From: an uncultured Acidimicrobiia bacterium
GTDB lineage: Bacteria; Actinomycetota; Acidimicrobiia; Acidimicrobiales; AC-14
Assembly: GCA_963836205.1 (NCBI GenBank)
Contig: CAWIIV010000013.1
Coordinates: 1 to 64,000 of the forward strand
Direction of reading: 5' to 3'
DNA length: 64,000 nucleotides
The notes beneath the pieces were generated by a model. The model was given only the letters and a program-made list of their open reading frames with translations, made no database searches and was not told the origin of the DNA. The number at the start of each line of letters is the position of its first letter. Position 1 is the first letter of the stretch. Of this stretch, positions 40,189 through 43,366 are shown piece after piece. The position numbers were made by a program, and so were the translations under genes.

Positions 40189-40440
40189 ATGCCTGATGAC
40201 GACATCCGCTGGATGAGCACGGCTGCCGCGGCCCGTCGGCTCGGGGTCACCGTGCGTACCCTCTACCGCCTCATCAACGAGGCCGAGCTGCCGGCCTACA
40301 AGTTCGGGCGGGTCATCCGCCTCAAGCAGGAGGAGGTCGACGCCTTCATCCAGTCGTCCCGGATCGCCCCCGGGTCGCTGGAGCACCTCTACCCCGAGTC
40401 GAAGAGGGACACCTCCGACACCGAGGCCAACGTCACGTAA
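40189..40440 (+). CDS. BldC/excisionase-like HTH (HTH_17) DNA-binding protein
   Basis: WMSTAAAARRLGVTVRTLYRLINEAELPAYKFGRVIRL; TACGAT 6 nt before ATG. Confidence 0.82.
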   Translation: MPDDDIRWMSTAAAARRLGVTVRTLYRLINEAELPAYKFGRVIRLKQEEVDAFIQSSRIAPGSLEHLYPESKRDTSDTEANVT

Positions 40441-40943
40441 CTGAGTCCCGGCGGCTCACCGTCGGTGCGGACGGTGAGCACGTCCGTGCCCACTGCCCGC
40501 AGCTCGCCCACCACGGTGACGGTTCCGAGCACCACCGCCACCCGGGGACGAGTGGCGACCGCCTGGGCCAGCACCTCGGCCAAGGTCACGCCCTCGGCGT
40601 TGGCACCGCGGCCTCGGTCGGCTCCCGCCGCCGCCTGTGGACGCCGCGTGCCGGTGCCGGGCCGCACCTCGGCCACCGCCGCCAGGTGCACGAGGACGAG
40701 CCGGTTCTCGGGCCCGGCGACGGCTACGAAATCGGCGCCCACCGCCGCGATCGGGCCGCGGTGGCGCCGCCCGGTCACCGTCGTGATCGACACTGGCCGC
40801 CCGTCCTCGGCCAGGTCGACCAGGAGCCCGGCGAACGACGCCTCTTCCTCCGCCGCCTGCCGCAGCCAACGCTCGCGGACGCGAGCCTCGGCCGCCTCCT
40901 GCGCCCGCGCCCCTGCGGCCCACCGCTCGAGATCGTCGAGCAC
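40389..40943 (-). CDS. Conserved actinobacterial hypothetical protein (two Sm-like halves), overlapping the HTH gene convergently
   Basis: LDDLE..., HRGPIAAVGADFV and VVGELRAVGTDVL internal duplication; resembles the protein I recall beside SAF/HTH/LysM genes in actinomycetes. Confidence 0.6.
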   Translation of the reverse strand: MLDDLERWAAGARAQEAAEARVRERWLRQAAEEEASFAGLLVDLAEDGRPVSITTVTGRRHRGPIAAVGADFVAVAGPENRLVLVHLAAVAEVRPGTGTRRPQAAAGADRGRGANAEGVTLAEVLAQAVATRPRVAVVLGTVTVVGELRAVGTDVLTVRTDGEPPGLSYVTLASVSEVSLFDSG

Positions 40944-40977
40944 CGCCGAACGCTACCCGTGCCGCGCTTGCCGGACG

Positions 40978-41026
40978 TTCGTGGGCCGGAAAAGGTGCGT
41001 CTGGCGCCCCTTTTCTGGCCCAAGAA
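40978..41026. repeat. 49-bp palindromic repeat, family A copy 2
   Basis: TTCGTGGGCCGGAAAAGG...CCTTTTCTGGCCCAAGAA. Confidence 0.7.
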
Positions 41027-41063
41027 GGTTGGACGGGGAGCGAAGGCCTACCGTGATCCCCAT

Positions 41064-43020
41064 GTTGCGTCCTGAGAACTGGACCAGACCAGCGGGTGCG
41101 AGTCCCGCCCGGGTAATCGCCGGAGAGCCCGGTAGCAGGCCCCGGTTCGTCGCCGAGAGGCGGCGGGCTGAGCGGGGCGTCAAGAGCCTCTTTGGAGGGA
41201 GCAAGCGTGCGGGCCGTAGTGCCACCAGGCGCGAGTCCTGCAGCCTCGTCAAACGCACAACGGGGGAGCCGAGCCGCTCATGTCACGGCGAAGGCCACGT
41301 CCGACCGACTGGCGTTCCGGACACGCCCCTGGTCGGGTCCCCTCGGGGTACGGGGAGCGGCACGTACGCACGGTCAGGTTCGGAACAGGAGAGACCCGTC
41401 TGCGCAGCCTCGTCAGCAAAGACCGCTCGTATAAGCCAGTGGTGAAATCGAGCGGAGCGCAGCGGGAGTCCGACGGGGTCGTAGTACCGCTGATCGCCGG
41501 GATGAACCCGGCGGGAGGGAAGGGCCCCGACTTCGGTCACGCCGGAGACGGAAGTAAGCGCCAGGGCATGGCCGGGAACGCCCGGCCCAACTCCCCCGGC
41601 GGGCAGCCGCCCACCGACAACGTGCGAAAACTCCAGAACCGGCTATGGGCTGCGGCCAAGCAGTCTCCGGGTCGCCGCTTCCACGCCCTGTTCGACCGAA
41701 TCCACCGCAGTGACGTGCTGTGGACGGCGTGGGAGCGGGTGCGAGCCAATCGTGGCGCCGCCGGGGTCGATCGACTGACCCTGGAGGCGGTGGAGGACTA
41801 CGGGGTCGGGCGCGTGCTCGACGAGCTTTCCCGTGACCTCCGTGCAGGCACCTACCGCCCGTCGCCTGTTCGGCGGGTGGAGATCCCCAAGCCCGACGGC
41901 CGGATGCGGCCCCTGGGCATCCCCACCGTGCGCGACCGGGTGTGCCAGGCGGCAGCCAAGATCGTCCTCGAACCCATCTTCGAGGCCGATTTCCTGCCCC
42001 AGAGCTTCGGGTTCCGCCCGAAGCGGTCGGCCACCGACGCCCTGGAAGCCATCCGGGTGTCCTTCCCCCGAGGACGGCAGTTCGTCTTCGAGGCCGACAT
42101 CCGCGACTTCTTCGGCCAGATCGACCACGACAGGCTGCTGTCACTGGTCGGCGAGCGCGTGTCGGACCGGCGGGTGCTCAAGCTCATCCGCCAGTGGCTG
42201 CGTGCCGGGGTGCTGGTCGAGGGGGTGCGCTCCGAGACGGTCACGGGCACGCCCCAGGGCGGGGTCATCTCCCCGCTGCTGGCCAACATCTACCTGCACG
42301 CCTTCGACCGGTCCTGGGCCGAGTCCGGCACCGGCGAGCTCGTCCGTTACGCGGACGACTTCGTGGTGCTGTGCACGACCCGCAGCCAGGCCGAGACGGC
42401 CCAGGCCAGGGCGGCGGCCCTGCTGGGTGATCTCGGCCTGAGCCTGCACCCGGACAAGACCCGTGTGGTCGACCTCCGGGAGGGCAAGGAGGGCTTCGAC
42501 TTCCTGGGTTGTCATCTTCACGCCCGCATGTCGGGCCGGTTGTGGGAACAGCAGCGGGTCATCCGCTACTACCTCCACCGCTGGCCGTCGCAGCGGTCGA
42601 TGAAGCGGGCACGACAGCGGGTCAAGGCCCTCACCGGCCGGAACCGGGTCGGCATGGAGTTGGAGGACGTGATCTACGACCTCAACCTGTTCCTGCGGGG
42701 GTGGGGCAACTACTTCCGCACCGGCAACGCGGCGAATAAGTTCGTCTCCCTCGACCGACACGTCGTGTGGCGGCTCAAGCGCTTGCTCATCAAGAAGCGG
42801 GGCCGCAACCTACGGGCAGGCCAGGCAGACTGCTGGACCCGCACCTGGTTCCACGGCCAGGGCCTGCATCAGCTCATGGGCACCATTCGCTACCCGAAGG
42901 CGTCGTAACCATGTCCAGAAGATCGTCGGAAAGCCGTATGCGGGAAAACCGCACGTACGGATTGAAAGGGGGATGGGGAAACGTGCTGGCCTTGCCGGCA
43001 ACGCGCCCCTGACTACCAAT
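41064..43020 (+). mobile_element. Group II intron (1957 nt) inserted in the hit start codon
   Basis: 5' GTTGCG, domain V AAGCCGTATGCGGGAAAACCGCACGTACGGATT (~42931-42963), 3' end ...ACCAAT; excision restores ATG GCA TCG GAG TGC. Confidence 0.88.
41568..42908 (+). CDS. ltrA: Group II intron reverse transcriptase/maturase, no endonuclease domain
   Basis: GAAGVD, RRVEIPKPDG..RPLGIPTVRDR, SFGFRP, GTPQGGVISPLLANIYL, RYADD, FDFLG, GWGNYF. Confidence 0.95.
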   Translation: MAGNARPNSPGGQPPTDNVRKLQNRLWAAAKQSPGRRFHALFDRIHRSDVLWTAWERVRANRGAAGVDRLTLEAVEDYGVGRVLDELSRDLRAGTYRPSPVRRVEIPKPDGRMRPLGIPTVRDRVCQAAAKIVLEPIFEADFLPQSFGFRPKRSATDALEAIRVSFPRGRQFVFEADIRDFFGQIDHDRLLSLVGERVSDRRVLKLIRQWLRAGVLVEGVRSETVTGTPQGGVISPLLANIYLHAFDRSWAESGTGELVRYADDFVVLCTTRSQAETAQARAAALLGDLGLSLHPDKTRVVDLREGKEGFDFLGCHLHARMSGRLWEQQRVIRYYLHRWPSQRSMKRARQRVKALTGRNRVGMELEDVIYDLNLFLRGWGNYFRTGNAANKFVSLDRHVVWRLKRLLIKKRGRNLRAGQADCWTRTWFHGQGLHQLMGTIRYPKAS

Positions 43021-43366
43021 GGCATCGGAGTGCGTCTTCTGCCGGATCGTCTCGGGCGACATCCCGTCCGACGCGGTGGCCTCGTCGGAGCTGTCCTACG
43101 CCTTCCGCGACATCCAGCCGGCCATGCCCGTGCACGTGCTCGTCGTCCCTCGGCGGCACATCACGTCGGCCGCCACCGTCGAGGCCGCCGACGCCGACGT
43201 CCTGGCCGACATGGTCCTCACTGCCCAGGAAGTGGCCCGCCGCGAGGGCCTGGCCGAGCGGGGCTACCGGCTCGTGTTCAACGTGGGCGACGACGCCCTC
43301 AACTCGGTCGCCCACCTCCACCTGCACGTGCTGGGCGGCCAGAAGATGGGGTGGCCGCCGGGCTGA
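43019..43366 (+). CDS. Histidine triad (HIT/HinT) nucleotide-binding protein
   Basis: CVFCRIV, FRDIQP..PVHVLVVP, HLHLHVLGG. Confidence 0.93.
   Translation: MASECVFCRIVSGDIPSDAVASSELSYAFRDIQPAMPVHVLVVPRRHITSAATVEAADADVLADMVLTAQEVARREGLAERGYRLVFNVGDDALNSVAHLHLHVLGGQKMGWPPG

What the first reader, a model, noticed from the sequence alone, without database searches (positions are those of the whole stretch)
41049..43021. Group II intron inserted inside a start codon (AT^G) that it regenerates, possibly with a 2-nt 5' exon
Seen: upstream ...TACCGT-gatcccc-AT|GTTGCG and downstream ...CTACCAAT|GGCATCGGAGTGC. Boundaries 41064/43020 keep a canonical AY 3' end and restore ATG-GCA-TCG-GAG-TGC of hit. 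The intron's terminal AT plus the exon G also recreates the ATG in unspliced RNA, so the insertion could be silent either way. The 5' end is GUUGCG rather than GUGYG. A -10 box 7 nt before the original ATG implies a leaderless mRNA, so the 5' exon would be just AU and the intron would capture the promoter of the hit-phoH-ybeY-era operon. Established: some bacterial intron lineages target translation start/stop signals (for example the A. vinelandii groEL stop-codon intron). Targeting leaderless starts would be a distinct strategy (inference).
Basis: partly seen in the sequence, partly recalled or inferred. Interest (0 to 1): 0.76.

Follow-up and report, generated by a model that had tools for sequence, protein, structure and literature searches.

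The report
Mobile intron that targets leaderless gene starts
A self-splicing mobile intron sits in the start codon of the hit gene, and its relatives in many soil bacteria sit at the same kind of place, a promoter box followed directly by a start codon, apparently borrowing both signals for their own expression.

Summary
Window 41064-43020 is a complete group II intron with an endonuclease-less RT/maturase. It lies between TACCGT-N7-AT and GGCATCG of hit. Same-genus relatives carry the uninterrupted ATGGCATCGGAG.

The genome holds 8 copies. With RT relatives from about ten phyla, 66 of 73 mapped 5' junctions read TAnnnT-N6-8-(A/G/T)T|G, against 0.66% of control RTG sites. Downstream ORFs are real genes that begin at that codon.

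Covariation shows the intron RNA reads the site:
- EBS1 (41280-41282) pairs with the base before the start codon and its first two bases.
- An EBS2-like triplet (41253-41255) pairs with the 3' half of the -10 hexamer.
- EBS3 (41351) pairs with the first base of codon 2.
- The hexamer's TA is invariant and required.

The EBS3 result favours a junction after the whole ATG (3-nt 5' exon) over AT^G. Sequence alone cannot decide.

In 23 of 59 relatives one ORF runs from the host start codon through the ribozyme to the RT stop. In the window this frame ends at a TGA overlapping a GTG of the RT frame.

The nearest RT relatives are class C introns, which target terminators. I found no description of this habit. 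An earlier scan note saw something similar on other DNA. TSS and splicing are untested.

The parts
40389..40943 (-). Upstream neighbour ORF, divergent from hit (184 aa, no Pfam family)
   Evidence: Codon-position GC of 0.82/0.55/0.89 marks the minus frame as coding. No co-directional gene reads into hit.
40983..41021 (+). G+C-rich hairpin in the 118-bp divergent spacer, followed by a T-rich run
   Evidence: Read. Its inner part (40994-41008) is scored terminator-like.
41049..41054 (+). -10-like hexamer TACCGT (TAnnnT). Positions 4-6 (CGT, 41052-41054) act as IBS2. TA (41049-41050) is the invariant determinant.
   Evidence: Relatives' intron-less hit genes also have TAnnnT 6-8 nt before the ATG.
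41061..41064 (+). IBS1: C41061 plus the start codon ATG 41062-41064. This is the 5' exon end: AT in model ii, ATG in model iii.
   Evidence: Covariation with the EBS1 loop.
41064..43020 (+). Group II intron, 1957 nt in model ii (G...AAT). Model iii is 41065-43021.
   Evidence: Rfam, copies with other flanks, empty sites.
41062..41445 (+). Frame opened by the host start codon. It has 127 codons through domains I-III and ends at TGA 41443-41445, which overlaps GTG 41442-41444 of the RT frame.
   Evidence: (it is part of listed ORF 40465..41445).
41253..41255 (+). EBS2-like triplet A-C-G in the internal loop UCAAACGCACAAC of domain ID. It pairs with hexamer positions 6, 5 and 4.
   Evidence: In one search, y1:hex5 pairs in 49 of 53 and y2:hex4 in 36 of 53, with 0 of 2000 shuffles reaching either value.
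41279..41282 (+). EBS1 in hairpin loop CUCAUGUCA. A-U-G (41280-41282) pairs with flank positions -1, -2 and -3. Invariant C41279 could pair with the G of the start codon.
   Evidence: In one search the counts are 59/59, 58/59 and 56/59, and C is invariant in 59/59.
41351..41351 (+). EBS3 (C in GGGGUA-C-GGGG). It pairs with G43022, the first base of codon 2 of hit.
   Evidence: 35 of 37. 45 of 50, with all four Watson-Crick types and 0 of 2000 shuffles reaching it.
41442..42908 (+). RT/maturase reading frame (RVT_1 + GIIM, no endonuclease domain). The frame is open from 41280. The true start is not known; candidates are GTG 41439 or 41442, ATG 41511 and ATG 41568.
   Evidence: GsI-IIC RT, E 2.8e-64. 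The start candidates were read.
42934..42960 (+). Domain V
   Evidence: Rfam RF00029. Consensus fold with compensatory changes.
42968..43017 (+). Domain VI. The basal stem is GGGG/CU[A]CC with bulged A43015 as candidate branch point. It lies 5 nt (model ii) or 6 nt (model iii) before the 3' splice site.
   Evidence: Consensus fold of 27 sequences.
43019..43366 (+). hit (HIT family) ORF as it reads in the DNA. Its ATG is regenerated from the intron's last bases. Codon 2 starts at 43022.

Best explanation
This is an active copy of a widespread lineage of mobile group II introns, related by RT to class C. The lineage homes to the promoter-plus-start-codon of leaderless genes.

Shown:
- The intron RNA reads the DNA site by three short pairings. 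An EBS2-like triplet pairs with positions 4-6 of the -10 hexamer. EBS1 pairs with the base before the start codon and its first two bases, probably also its G. EBS3 pairs with the first base of codon 2.
- The TA of the hexamer is an obligatory extra determinant, read in a way I could not identify.
- The gap between the hexamer and the start codon is 6-8 nt.

Inferred:
- After insertion, the host -10 box starts transcription at the A/G of the start codon. The primary transcript is then the start codon followed at once by the intron.
- The intron thus gains a promoter and a 5'-terminal start codon.
- Leaderless initiation at that codon translates a frame that runs through domains I-III. In many relatives this frame is the RT frame itself. 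In the window's clade it ends at a UGA overlapping a GUG of the RT frame, which suggests coupling.
- Splicing with a 2- or 3-nt 5' exon, held by EBS1 only, would rebuild the original leaderless hit-phoH-ybeY-corC-era mRNA.
For: Copies and sites:
- The genome has 8 copies: 5 near-identical, plus 3 copies about 90% alike, one of them cut by a contig end. All lie at (A/G)T|G. Seven have TAnnnT 6-8 nt upstream and the eighth has TAGCGA.
- 40 of 42 plus 26 of 31 mapped junctions fit. They come from Acidimicrobiia, Solirubrobacterales, Pseudonocardia, Mycobacterium, Embleya, Chloroflexia, Gemmatimonadales, Acidobacteriota, Nitrospirae, Proteobacteria, Planctomycetota and Spirochaetia.
- The control rate is 0.66%.

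Real gene starts:
- 10 of 10 tested downstream ORFs have their Pfam domain starting at profile position 1-7. They include SmpB, TrpS, NadD-like, IlvE-like and RsmI-like proteins.
- Own-genome hosts PIG-L, HDAC and MoCF_biosynth begin at profile position 1-2.
- Intron-less hit genes in relatives keep TAnnnT 6-8 nt before the same ATG.
- The genome-wide spacing of TAnnnT to RTG peaks at 6, 7 and 8 nt (346, 316 and 255, against about 110).

RNA-DNA pairings:
- EBS1:-3 pairs in 56 of 59 (shuffle mean 39.9).
- EBS3 pairs in 45 of 50 (shuffle mean 22.7).
- EBS2 y1 pairs in 49 of 53 (26.4) and y2 in 36 of 53 (21.4).
- None of 2000 shuffles reached any of these values. The sites are different genes, so the flanks are not inherited with the intron.

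TA requirement: 1613 empty sites in the genome fit the pairings. Only 17 carry TA, yet all 5 occupied sites of that subfamily do. My arithmetic gives (22/1618)^5, about 5e-10.

Promoter capture: the upstream gene is divergent.

Captured start codon:
- In 23 of 59 loci one ORF of 617-680 codons runs from the junction start codon to the RT stop.
- Over domains I-III that frame has 0 stops, against means of 5.2 and 6.4 in the other two frames.
- The eight different domain I lengths are all 2 mod 3.
- The ORF listing confirmed this for L033 and L069.
Against: - No transcription start, spliced product, lariat or protein was observed. The TSS is inferred from the motif only. RNA-library contigs gave no ends or joints.
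- A 2- or 3-nt 5' exon has no precedent that I know of (recalled). Holding it through the second splicing step looks difficult.
- In the window's own clade the RT is in another frame than the host start codon. The GTGA overlap lies in a conserved domain III motif, so it may be kept for RNA reasons.
- One copy (L001) sits inside a histidine kinase gene and one (L007) before a 19-codon ORF. Sequence, not gene function, therefore decides where the intron lands.
- 5 of 31 far junctions and 2 of 42 near ones lack TAnnnT. Three of these seven are mis-mapped or doubtfully mapped ends, and two have almost no flank.
- 13 of 88 loci could not be mapped.
- The relatives were found with the RT, best 80 of 590, so this is a sample.
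Confidence: 0.75

Rival explanations
1. Exact reading of the first stage. The splice junctions are AT|G and AAT|G, so the intron is GUUGCG...AAU and the 5' exon is the dinucleotide AU.
For: - The first intron base is then G in all mapped copies.
- The last two bases are the canonical A-pyrimidine: AAT, or AAC in L061.
- The other model would make the first base U in the 16 of 59 introns that begin GTTGCG or GTCGCG (model ii numbering), including the window's own. This is unusual for an intron with 5 near-identical copies.
Against: - EBS3 covaries with the base after the G, not with the G (45 of 50). In IIB and IIC introns IBS3 is the first base of the 3' exon (PMC8643678, introduction passage).
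- With ATG| the 5' end is the canonical GUGCG in 42 of 59, and in 28 of the 29 reliably mapped far relatives.
- Invariant C41279 extends EBS1 to 4 bp with the G.
- The bulged A then lies 6 rather than 5 nt before the 3' site, nearer the usual 7-8 (recalled).
Confidence: 0.35
2. Plain sequence-specific homing with no link to leaderless expression. On this view TAnnnT-N6-8-ATG is only the recognition sequence, the intron is transcribed by read-through from elsewhere, and the RT uses its own start in domain IV.
For: - The site is read by base pairing.
- Copies also land inside a gene (L001) and at a non-gene site (L007).
- In the window's clade the RT frame differs from the start-codon frame.
Against: - The motif equals the leaderless promoter layout, and nearly all sites are real gene starts.
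- At hit there is no co-directional upstream gene.
- The frame from the host start codon is kept open into the RT in 23 of 59 loci despite indels. Pure homing does not explain this.
Confidence: 0.15
3. Integration needs the promoter in action. The RNP reverse-splices into the non-template strand while RNA polymerase holds the -11 to +2 bubble open. The TA requirement and the 6-8 nt spacing would then reflect sigma binding and start-site choice, not direct reading.
For: - Every paired base (hexamer positions 4-6, position -1 to +4) lies in or at the edge of the region melted in an open complex (established knowledge of sigma-70 type promoters, recalled).
- T and A of the hexamer have no covarying partner in the intron.
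- The spacing is flexible (22, 17 and 1 sites at 6, 7 and 8 nt).
- The RT has no endonuclease or DNA-binding domain. Such introns prefer single-stranded DNA (PMC8643678, discussion passage).
Against: - In an open complex the last T of the hexamer is held by sigma (recalled), yet here it pairs with an invariant A of the intron.
- Nothing in the sequence data separates this view from direct recognition of TA by the RT or by invariant RNA bases.
Confidence: 0.2
4. The pattern is made by selection after near-random insertion. Only copies behind a promoter and at a start codon would survive.
For: Copies that interrupt genes without splicing would be lost.
Against: - Five near-identical, hence recent, copies all fit.
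- Intron and flank covary at five positions.
- 1596 sites that fit the pairings but lack TA are all empty.
Confidence: 0.03

Closest known systems
Bacterial class C (IIC) group II introns, which insert after Rho-independent terminators or attC hairpins
   Same: - The closest solved RTs are IIC RTs: GsI-IIC at 2.8e-64 and the Eubacterium rectale IIC RT at 3.4e-58.
- The RT has no endonuclease domain, the ribozyme is compact, and IBS1 is very short (3-4 bp) with a single-base IBS3.
- Both are specialised for a gene-expression signal rather than a unique gene.
- RT relatives at about 50% identity in Paenibacillus (L170, L174) sit directly after a hairpin and T-run.
   Different: - The target is a -10 box plus start codon, not a hairpin. 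No hairpin abuts the junction.
- An EBS2-like pairing exists, 5-6 nt away from IBS1.
- The intron lies inside housekeeping operons, at the 5' end of the transcript rather than the 3' end.
[quoted passage not shown] Source: Michel et al. 2007 as described in Gomes et al. 2025, PMC12584367 (introduction and discussion read).
   Same: [quoted passage not shown] The groEL intron lies inside the stop codon and regenerates a stop codon.
   Different: - That lineage is IIB1 with CL1-type RT and is reported from proteobacteria. All its members carry a 300-700 nt insertion at the base of domain I.
- Here the whole intron is 1957 nt, and only about 440-500 nt precede the RT.
- That description mentions no link to the -10 box, leaderless genes or a fused RT frame.
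- I could not read Michel et al. 2007 itself.
Yeast mitochondrial group II introns aI1 and aI2 (recalled, no call)
   Same: The RT reading frame is continuous with the upstream exon and runs through domains I-III, so the host gene's start codon serves the intron protein.
   Different: - Those are organellar IIA introns with long upstream exons.
- Here the upstream exon would be only the start codon.
- The frame is fused in 23 of 59 relatives but not in the window's copy.
IIE/IIF introns and Toro's En-less varieties g1-g4 (PMC3753933, passages; PMC3552965, section 11 and passages)
   Same: They have En-less RTs. Their EBS2-IBS2 pairing covaries but is dispensable for splicing in vitro, so it probably serves homing. 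Actinobacterial and myxobacterial members are listed.
   Different: Membership was not tested because no reference sequences were at hand. The passages I read mention no start-codon or promoter targeting.

Membership tests
Mobile group II intron | Ribozyme domains I-VI with a catalytic domain V and a bulged A in domain VI | tested here: met
   RF02003 scores 91 bits against a gathering score of 49. Domains V/VI (RF00029) score 37.8 bits, just under the gathering score of 40, with E 9e-5. The consensus fold has compensatory pairs and bulged A43015.
Mobile group II intron | RT/maturase ORF in domain IV | tested here: met
   RVT_1 at 2.8e-36 and GIIM at 2.2e-16.
Mobile group II intron | Mobility: several copies with unrelated flanks, and precise empty sites | tested here: met
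   8 copies in the genome. Intron-less hit genes in relatives equal the predicted ligated exons.
Mobile group II intron | EBS-IBS pairings with the flanking exons | tested here: met
   EBS1, the EBS2-like triplet and EBS3 all covary with the flanks.
Mobile group II intron | Self-splicing and lariat formation | not testable with these tools
   The RNA-library contigs show no joints or ends.
Class C (IIC) introns | Insertion directly after a terminator or attC hairpin | tested here: not met
   The flanks are TAnnnT-N6-8-start codon. The only hairpin near hit ends 42 nt upstream.
Class C (IIC) introns | No EBS2-IBS2 pairing | tested here: not met
   A triplet in domain ID covaries with hexamer positions 4-6.
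Class C (IIC) introns | Class C RT clade | tested here: inconclusive
   The best solved matches are IIC RTs, and the terminator-associated relatives are about 50% identical. No phylogeny with reference classes was made.
IIB1 start/stop-codon lineage (Michel et al. 2007) | Located within or next to an initiation or termination codon | tested here: met
IIB1 start/stop-codon lineage (Michel et al. 2007) | 300-700 nt insertion (subdomain Ia) at the base of domain I | tested here: not met
   EBS1 lies 199-277 nt from the 5' end in all mapped members. The intron is 1957 nt long.
IIB1 start/stop-codon lineage (Michel et al. 2007) | IIB1 ribozyme with CL1-type RT | tested here: inconclusive
   The RT is closer to IIC RTs than to the other solved group II RTs. 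No CL1 reference was compared.
Leaderless gene start (promoter directly before the start codon) | TAnnnT -10 element 6-8 nt before the start codon, with no room for a Shine-Dalgarno site | tested here: met
   The genome-wide spacing peaks at 6-8 nt.
Leaderless gene start (promoter directly before the start codon) | Transcript 5' end at the first base of the start codon | not testable with these tools
   No raw RNA reads of this organism were available.

The most novel reading that the evidence does not exclude
A group II intron lineage lives as a parasite of leaderless gene starts.
- It base-pairs with the -10 box and the start codon of the DNA target. It possibly does so while the promoter is melted by RNA polymerase.
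- It is then transcribed from that promoter as a leaderless mRNA.
- Its RT is translated from the host's own start codon.
- It splices with a 5' exon of only three nucleotides, handing the same AUG back to the host gene.
Probability: 0.4. Interest if true: 0.9.

Novelty: new variant of a known kind. Interest (0 to 1): 0.82.

Why it matters
Bacterial group II introns are said to lack promoters and to avoid housekeeping genes (PMC12584367, introduction). This lineage would solve both problems. It lands where a promoter and a start codon coincide, so every new copy is expressed, and the host mRNA can be restored by splicing.

It is found in trpS, smpB, nadD-like, ilvE-like, rsmI-like and hit genes of many soil phyla.

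If the inferences hold, it gives:
- a natural test of how short a 5' exon a group II ribozyme can use;
- a bacterial case of an intron protein started from the host's start codon;
- a new target-recognition layout, with IBS2 separated from IBS1 and an unexplained TA requirement;
- possibly a marker for leaderless promoters in uncultured bacteria, and a starting point for targetrons aimed at promoter-proximal sites in high-G+C bacteria.

Tried and rejected
1. RNA evidence. One run search gave soil metatranscriptome and other runs holding at most 17% of the words. Laying X1-X4 (Logan contigs, 90% likeness) covered only the intron. It gave no begin or end places and only joints typical of mixed relatives. 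This gave no verdict on TSS, splicing or boundaries.
2. Settling AT|G against ATG| through the gamma-gamma' pair. I looked for a change in J2/3 matching the AAC end of L061. I could not identify gamma, so I dropped this.
3. Further pairings. Position -4 with loop position 220 (30 of 59, equal to the shuffle mean) and hexamer position 3 with y3 (25 of 53, with 267 of 2000 shuffles reaching it) show nothing. EBS3 against the next exon base shows nothing either.
4. ORF length as evidence for gene starts. 60% of random RTG sites open 60 or more codons in this G+C-rich DNA, so I used Pfam N-termini instead.
5. Class assignment. A second RT scan from the Sorangium copy did not bring in Myxococcus xanthus, so a link to Toro's g2 or class F stays untested.
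6. The 17 empty TA-bearing sites in the genome are mostly gene starts too. They do not separate 'promoter function' from 'direct TA reading'.
7. Literature. Searches found no paper on group II introns at leaderless promoters. Simon et al. 2008 and Michel et al. 2007 are not held. Supplements were not opened.
8. Earlier scan notes by sequence or place gave nothing.
9. Thirteen of 88 loci could not be mapped: L022, L050, L060, L070, L072, L075, L076, L078, L081, L082, L085, L086 and one other. L032 and L077 have only 3-5 nt of flank, ending in cat.
Full report
**What is there**

- TACCGT at 41049-41054;
- seven bases, then ATG at 41062-41064 running into TTGCGTCC;
- ...CTACCAAT ending at 43020, followed by GGCATCGGAGTGC.

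Between them lies a complete group II intron. Rfam finds the domain I-IV family RF02003 (91 bits, gathering score 49), a partial RF02005 match, and domains V/VI (37.8 bits, gathering score 40, E 9e-5). ORF 41280-42908 carries RVT_1 and GIIM and no endonuclease domain. HIT, PhoH, YbeY, CNNM/CorC and Era follow.

The upstream neighbour (40389-40943) is on the other strand, by codon-position G+C. The hit promoter must therefore lie in the 118-bp spacer. That spacer also holds a hairpin at 40983-41021.

**Boundaries**

The genome (25 contigs, 4.05 Mb, 89% complete) holds eight copies. Five are near-identical and three form a second subfamily about 90% alike, one of them cut by a contig end. Their flanks are unrelated, and homology stops at xT|G on the left and at CCAAT|G on the right.

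Same-genus relatives have uninterrupted hit genes. G001 reads TAGCGT-N8-ATGGCATCGGAGTGCGTCTTCTGCCGG, identical to the predicted ligated exons. These claims rest on G001-G007, G011, G014 and G016, and on none of the genomes flagged unpublished.

The element carries a G at one end and the target has a G at the junction.

**The habit belongs to the lineage**

I mapped the 5' junction in the 80 best RT relatives out of 590 confirmed, plus the eight own copies.
- By nhmmer, 42 were mapped. Of these, 40 have TAnnnT 6 nt (22 sites), 7 nt (17) or 8 nt (1) before the first base of the start codon. The exceptions are L007 (TAGCGA, before a 19-codon ORF) and L083 (end poorly mapped).
- By motif, 31 of the 36 more distant loci were mapped. 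Of these, 26 fit. Two of the five misses have under 6 nt of flank on their contig, and two are doubtful mappings.
- In total 66 of 73 fit. Thirteen loci could not be mapped, and two more lie at contig ends.
- The control rate is 204 of 31114 RTG sites in the same loci, or 0.66%.

Hosts span Actinomycetota, Chloroflexota, Gemmatimonadota, Acidobacteriota, Nitrospirota, Proteobacteria, Planctomycetota and Spirochaetota. Start codons are ATG in 45, GTG in 13 and TTG in 1.

**The sites are real gene starts**

- Ten of ten downstream ORFs tested have their Pfam domain beginning at profile position 1-7, within 4-76 residues. They are an RF-1 domain protein, SmpB, a cytidylyltransferase-like (NadD-like) protein, a class IV aminotransferase, TrpS, an RsmI-like methylase, DegV, a deacetylase, an SDR and an iron-dependent repressor.
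- In the own genome, PIG-L, a deacetylase and a MoCF_biosynth protein start at profile position 1-2.
- One copy (L001) lies inside the HATPase_c domain of a histidine kinase, at a sequence that mimics the motif: TATCGT-N7-GT|G.
- Genome-wide, the distance from TAnnnT to ATG/GTG peaks at 6, 7 and 8 nt (346, 316 and 255, against about 110 elsewhere). Starts of this type are common in this organism.

That this layout means a leaderless mRNA rests on established knowledge of actinobacterial promoters, which I recall. It was not measured here.

**How the site is read**

I aligned domain I of the mapped introns and scanned it against the flanks. This gave three covariations, which I recounted on 59 regex-mapped loci. 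Sixty-two were mapped, and three that were clearly mis-mapped were dropped.

1. The hairpin loop CUCAUGUCA (A-U-G at 41280-41282) pairs with flank positions -1, -2 and -3. The counts are 59/59, 58/59 and 56/59. For position -3 the shuffle mean is 39.9, and 0 of 2000 shuffles reach the observed value. G-C, A-U, U-A and G-U all occur. Position -4 shows nothing. The C before the loop's AUG is invariant and could pair with the G of the start codon.
2. The base after GGGGUA (41351) pairs with the first base of codon 2 in 45 of 50 (shuffle mean 22.7, 0 of 2000). It does not pair with the next base.
3. In the internal loop UCA-x-A-y1-y2 (41253-41255 = A-C-G), the invariant A faces the last T of the hexamer. 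y1 pairs with hexamer position 5 in 49 of 53 (shuffle mean 26.4). y2 pairs with position 4 in 36 of 53 (shuffle mean 21.4). Both have 0 of 2000 shuffles reaching them. Hexamer position 3 shows nothing.

The sites are different genes in different genomes, so the flanks are not inherited with the intron. The shuffle control is fair here.

This explains why all five sites of the window's subfamily read TAnCGT.

The T and A at hexamer positions 1-2 never vary and have no covarying partner. They are nevertheless required. The genome has 1613 empty sites that fit NNNCGT-N5/6-C-RTG-G, and only 17 begin with TA. All five occupied sites do, which by my arithmetic has a chance of about 5e-10. About 13 of the 17 empty TA sites look like gene starts too. 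This does not tell whether TA is read directly or matters because the site must be a working promoter.

**Where exactly is the junction?**

For ATG| (model iii):
- In IIB and IIC introns IBS3 is the first base of the 3' exon (PMC8643678, introduction passage). Here it is the base after the G.
- The 5' end is then the canonical GUGCG in 42 of 59, and in 28 of the 29 reliably mapped far relatives.
- EBS1 becomes 4 bp.
- The bulged A of domain VI (43015) lies 6 rather than 5 nt before the 3' site.

For AT|G (model ii):
- The first base is always G and the end is always A-pyrimidine.
- Model iii would make the window's own intron, which is evidently active, start with U.

I put about 60:35 on ATG|.

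**The start codon is shared with the intron**

The frame that begins at the junction start codon stays open far into the intron. The other two frames close after 3-76 codons.

In 23 of 59 loci it is a single ORF of 617-680 codons, down to the RT stop.
- Over domains I-III it has no stop, against means of 5.2 and 6.4 stops in the other two frames.
- This includes a 57% G+C example with 9 and 12 stops in the other frames.
- The eight different domain I lengths are all 2 mod 3.
- The ORF listing lists these ORFs as starting exactly at the junction ATG in L033 and L069.

In the window's clade the frame has 127 codons (41062-41445). It ends at TGA 41443-41445, which overlaps GTG 41442 of the RT frame. 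That overlap lies in a conserved domain III motif, so coupling is only a hypothesis here.

**Model**

Shown:
- the element, its copies, the site pattern, the pairings and the TA requirement;
- the real gene starts;
- the open frames.

Inferred:
- transcription starts at the start codon, so the intron captures a promoter;
- leaderless initiation at the 5'-terminal start codon feeds the intron frame and thereby the RT;
- splicing with a 2- or 3-nt 5' exon, held only by EBS1, restores the leaderless host mRNA.

No Shine-Dalgarno motif precedes it.

**Comparison with what is known**

By RT the lineage is nearest class C: GsI-IIC RT at 2.8e-64. Relatives at about 50% identity in Paenibacillus sit after terminator hairpins. 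It nevertheless fails two defining features of IIC, namely hairpin targeting and the lack of EBS2.

The known IIB1 lineage at start and stop codons is defined by a 300-700 nt insertion in domain I and was described from proteobacteria (PMC12584367, introduction and discussion read). That insertion is absent here.

A frame fused to the upstream exon is known from yeast mitochondrial aI1 and aI2 (recalled).

Eight literature searches found nothing on group II introns and leaderless promoters. Michel et al. 2007 and Simon et al. 2008 were not available, and supplements were closed, so an earlier mention cannot be excluded.

That agrees with this finding but is not independent evidence.

**Verdict**

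This is a real, well-delimited feature. I class it as a new variant of a known kind, a specialised group II intron lineage, and rate its interest as high.

Noticed in passing
G000 contig C13:79445-80084 (about 15 kb beyond the window's end; locus L008): A copy of the second intron subfamily lies on the same contig at TAAAAT-N8-AT|G. It is cut off by the contig end, so its host gene is unknown.
   Followed up: partly
window 40983-41021: A 13-bp G+C-rich hairpin with a T-rich tail lies in the spacer between two divergent genes, 27 nt before the -10 box of hit. It cannot be the terminator of a co-directional gene, and its role is unknown.
   Followed up: no
L014 (1839-4627), L077 (6-4258), L079 (2790-6706): Three relatives are much longer than the usual 1.95-2.0 kb, at 2789, 4253 and 3917 nt. 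L014 has a second domain I-like match inside it. These may be nested or tandem elements.
   Followed up: no
L170 about 880-945; L174 about 880-940: RT relatives at about 50% identity in Paenibacillaceae sit directly after a hairpin plus T-run, the classical IIC habit. This marks the edge of the start-codon lineage.
   Followed up: partly
L177 about 870-900; L172 about 870-900; L164 about 870-900: Actinobacterial relatives at 49-54% RT identity have other 5' contexts, for example TAAGCCT-N8 directly before GTGCG. This may be a further habit, with the intron's own GUG at the start site.
   Followed up: no
many loci, e.g. L009, L010, L017, L021, L026: When the gap is 6 nt, a -10 box of the form TAG/TAA-nnT is an in-frame stop four codons before the start codon. 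This closes the host frame upstream; one search reports 'upstream open codons 3'.
   Followed up: no
window 41054-42978: Contigs of four soil and rhizosphere RNA libraries, 90-99% alike, cover the intron but not its flanks. They are deepest over domain I. Relatives of this intron are present in such libraries, though DNA carry-over is not excluded.
   Followed up: partly
G000, 17 sites listed: Seventeen unoccupied sites in the genome fit the full recognition pattern of the window's intron subfamily. Most are GTG starts of apparent genes. Occupied sites favour ATG (4 of 5), as expected for an A-U rather than a G-U pair with EBS1.
   Followed up: partly
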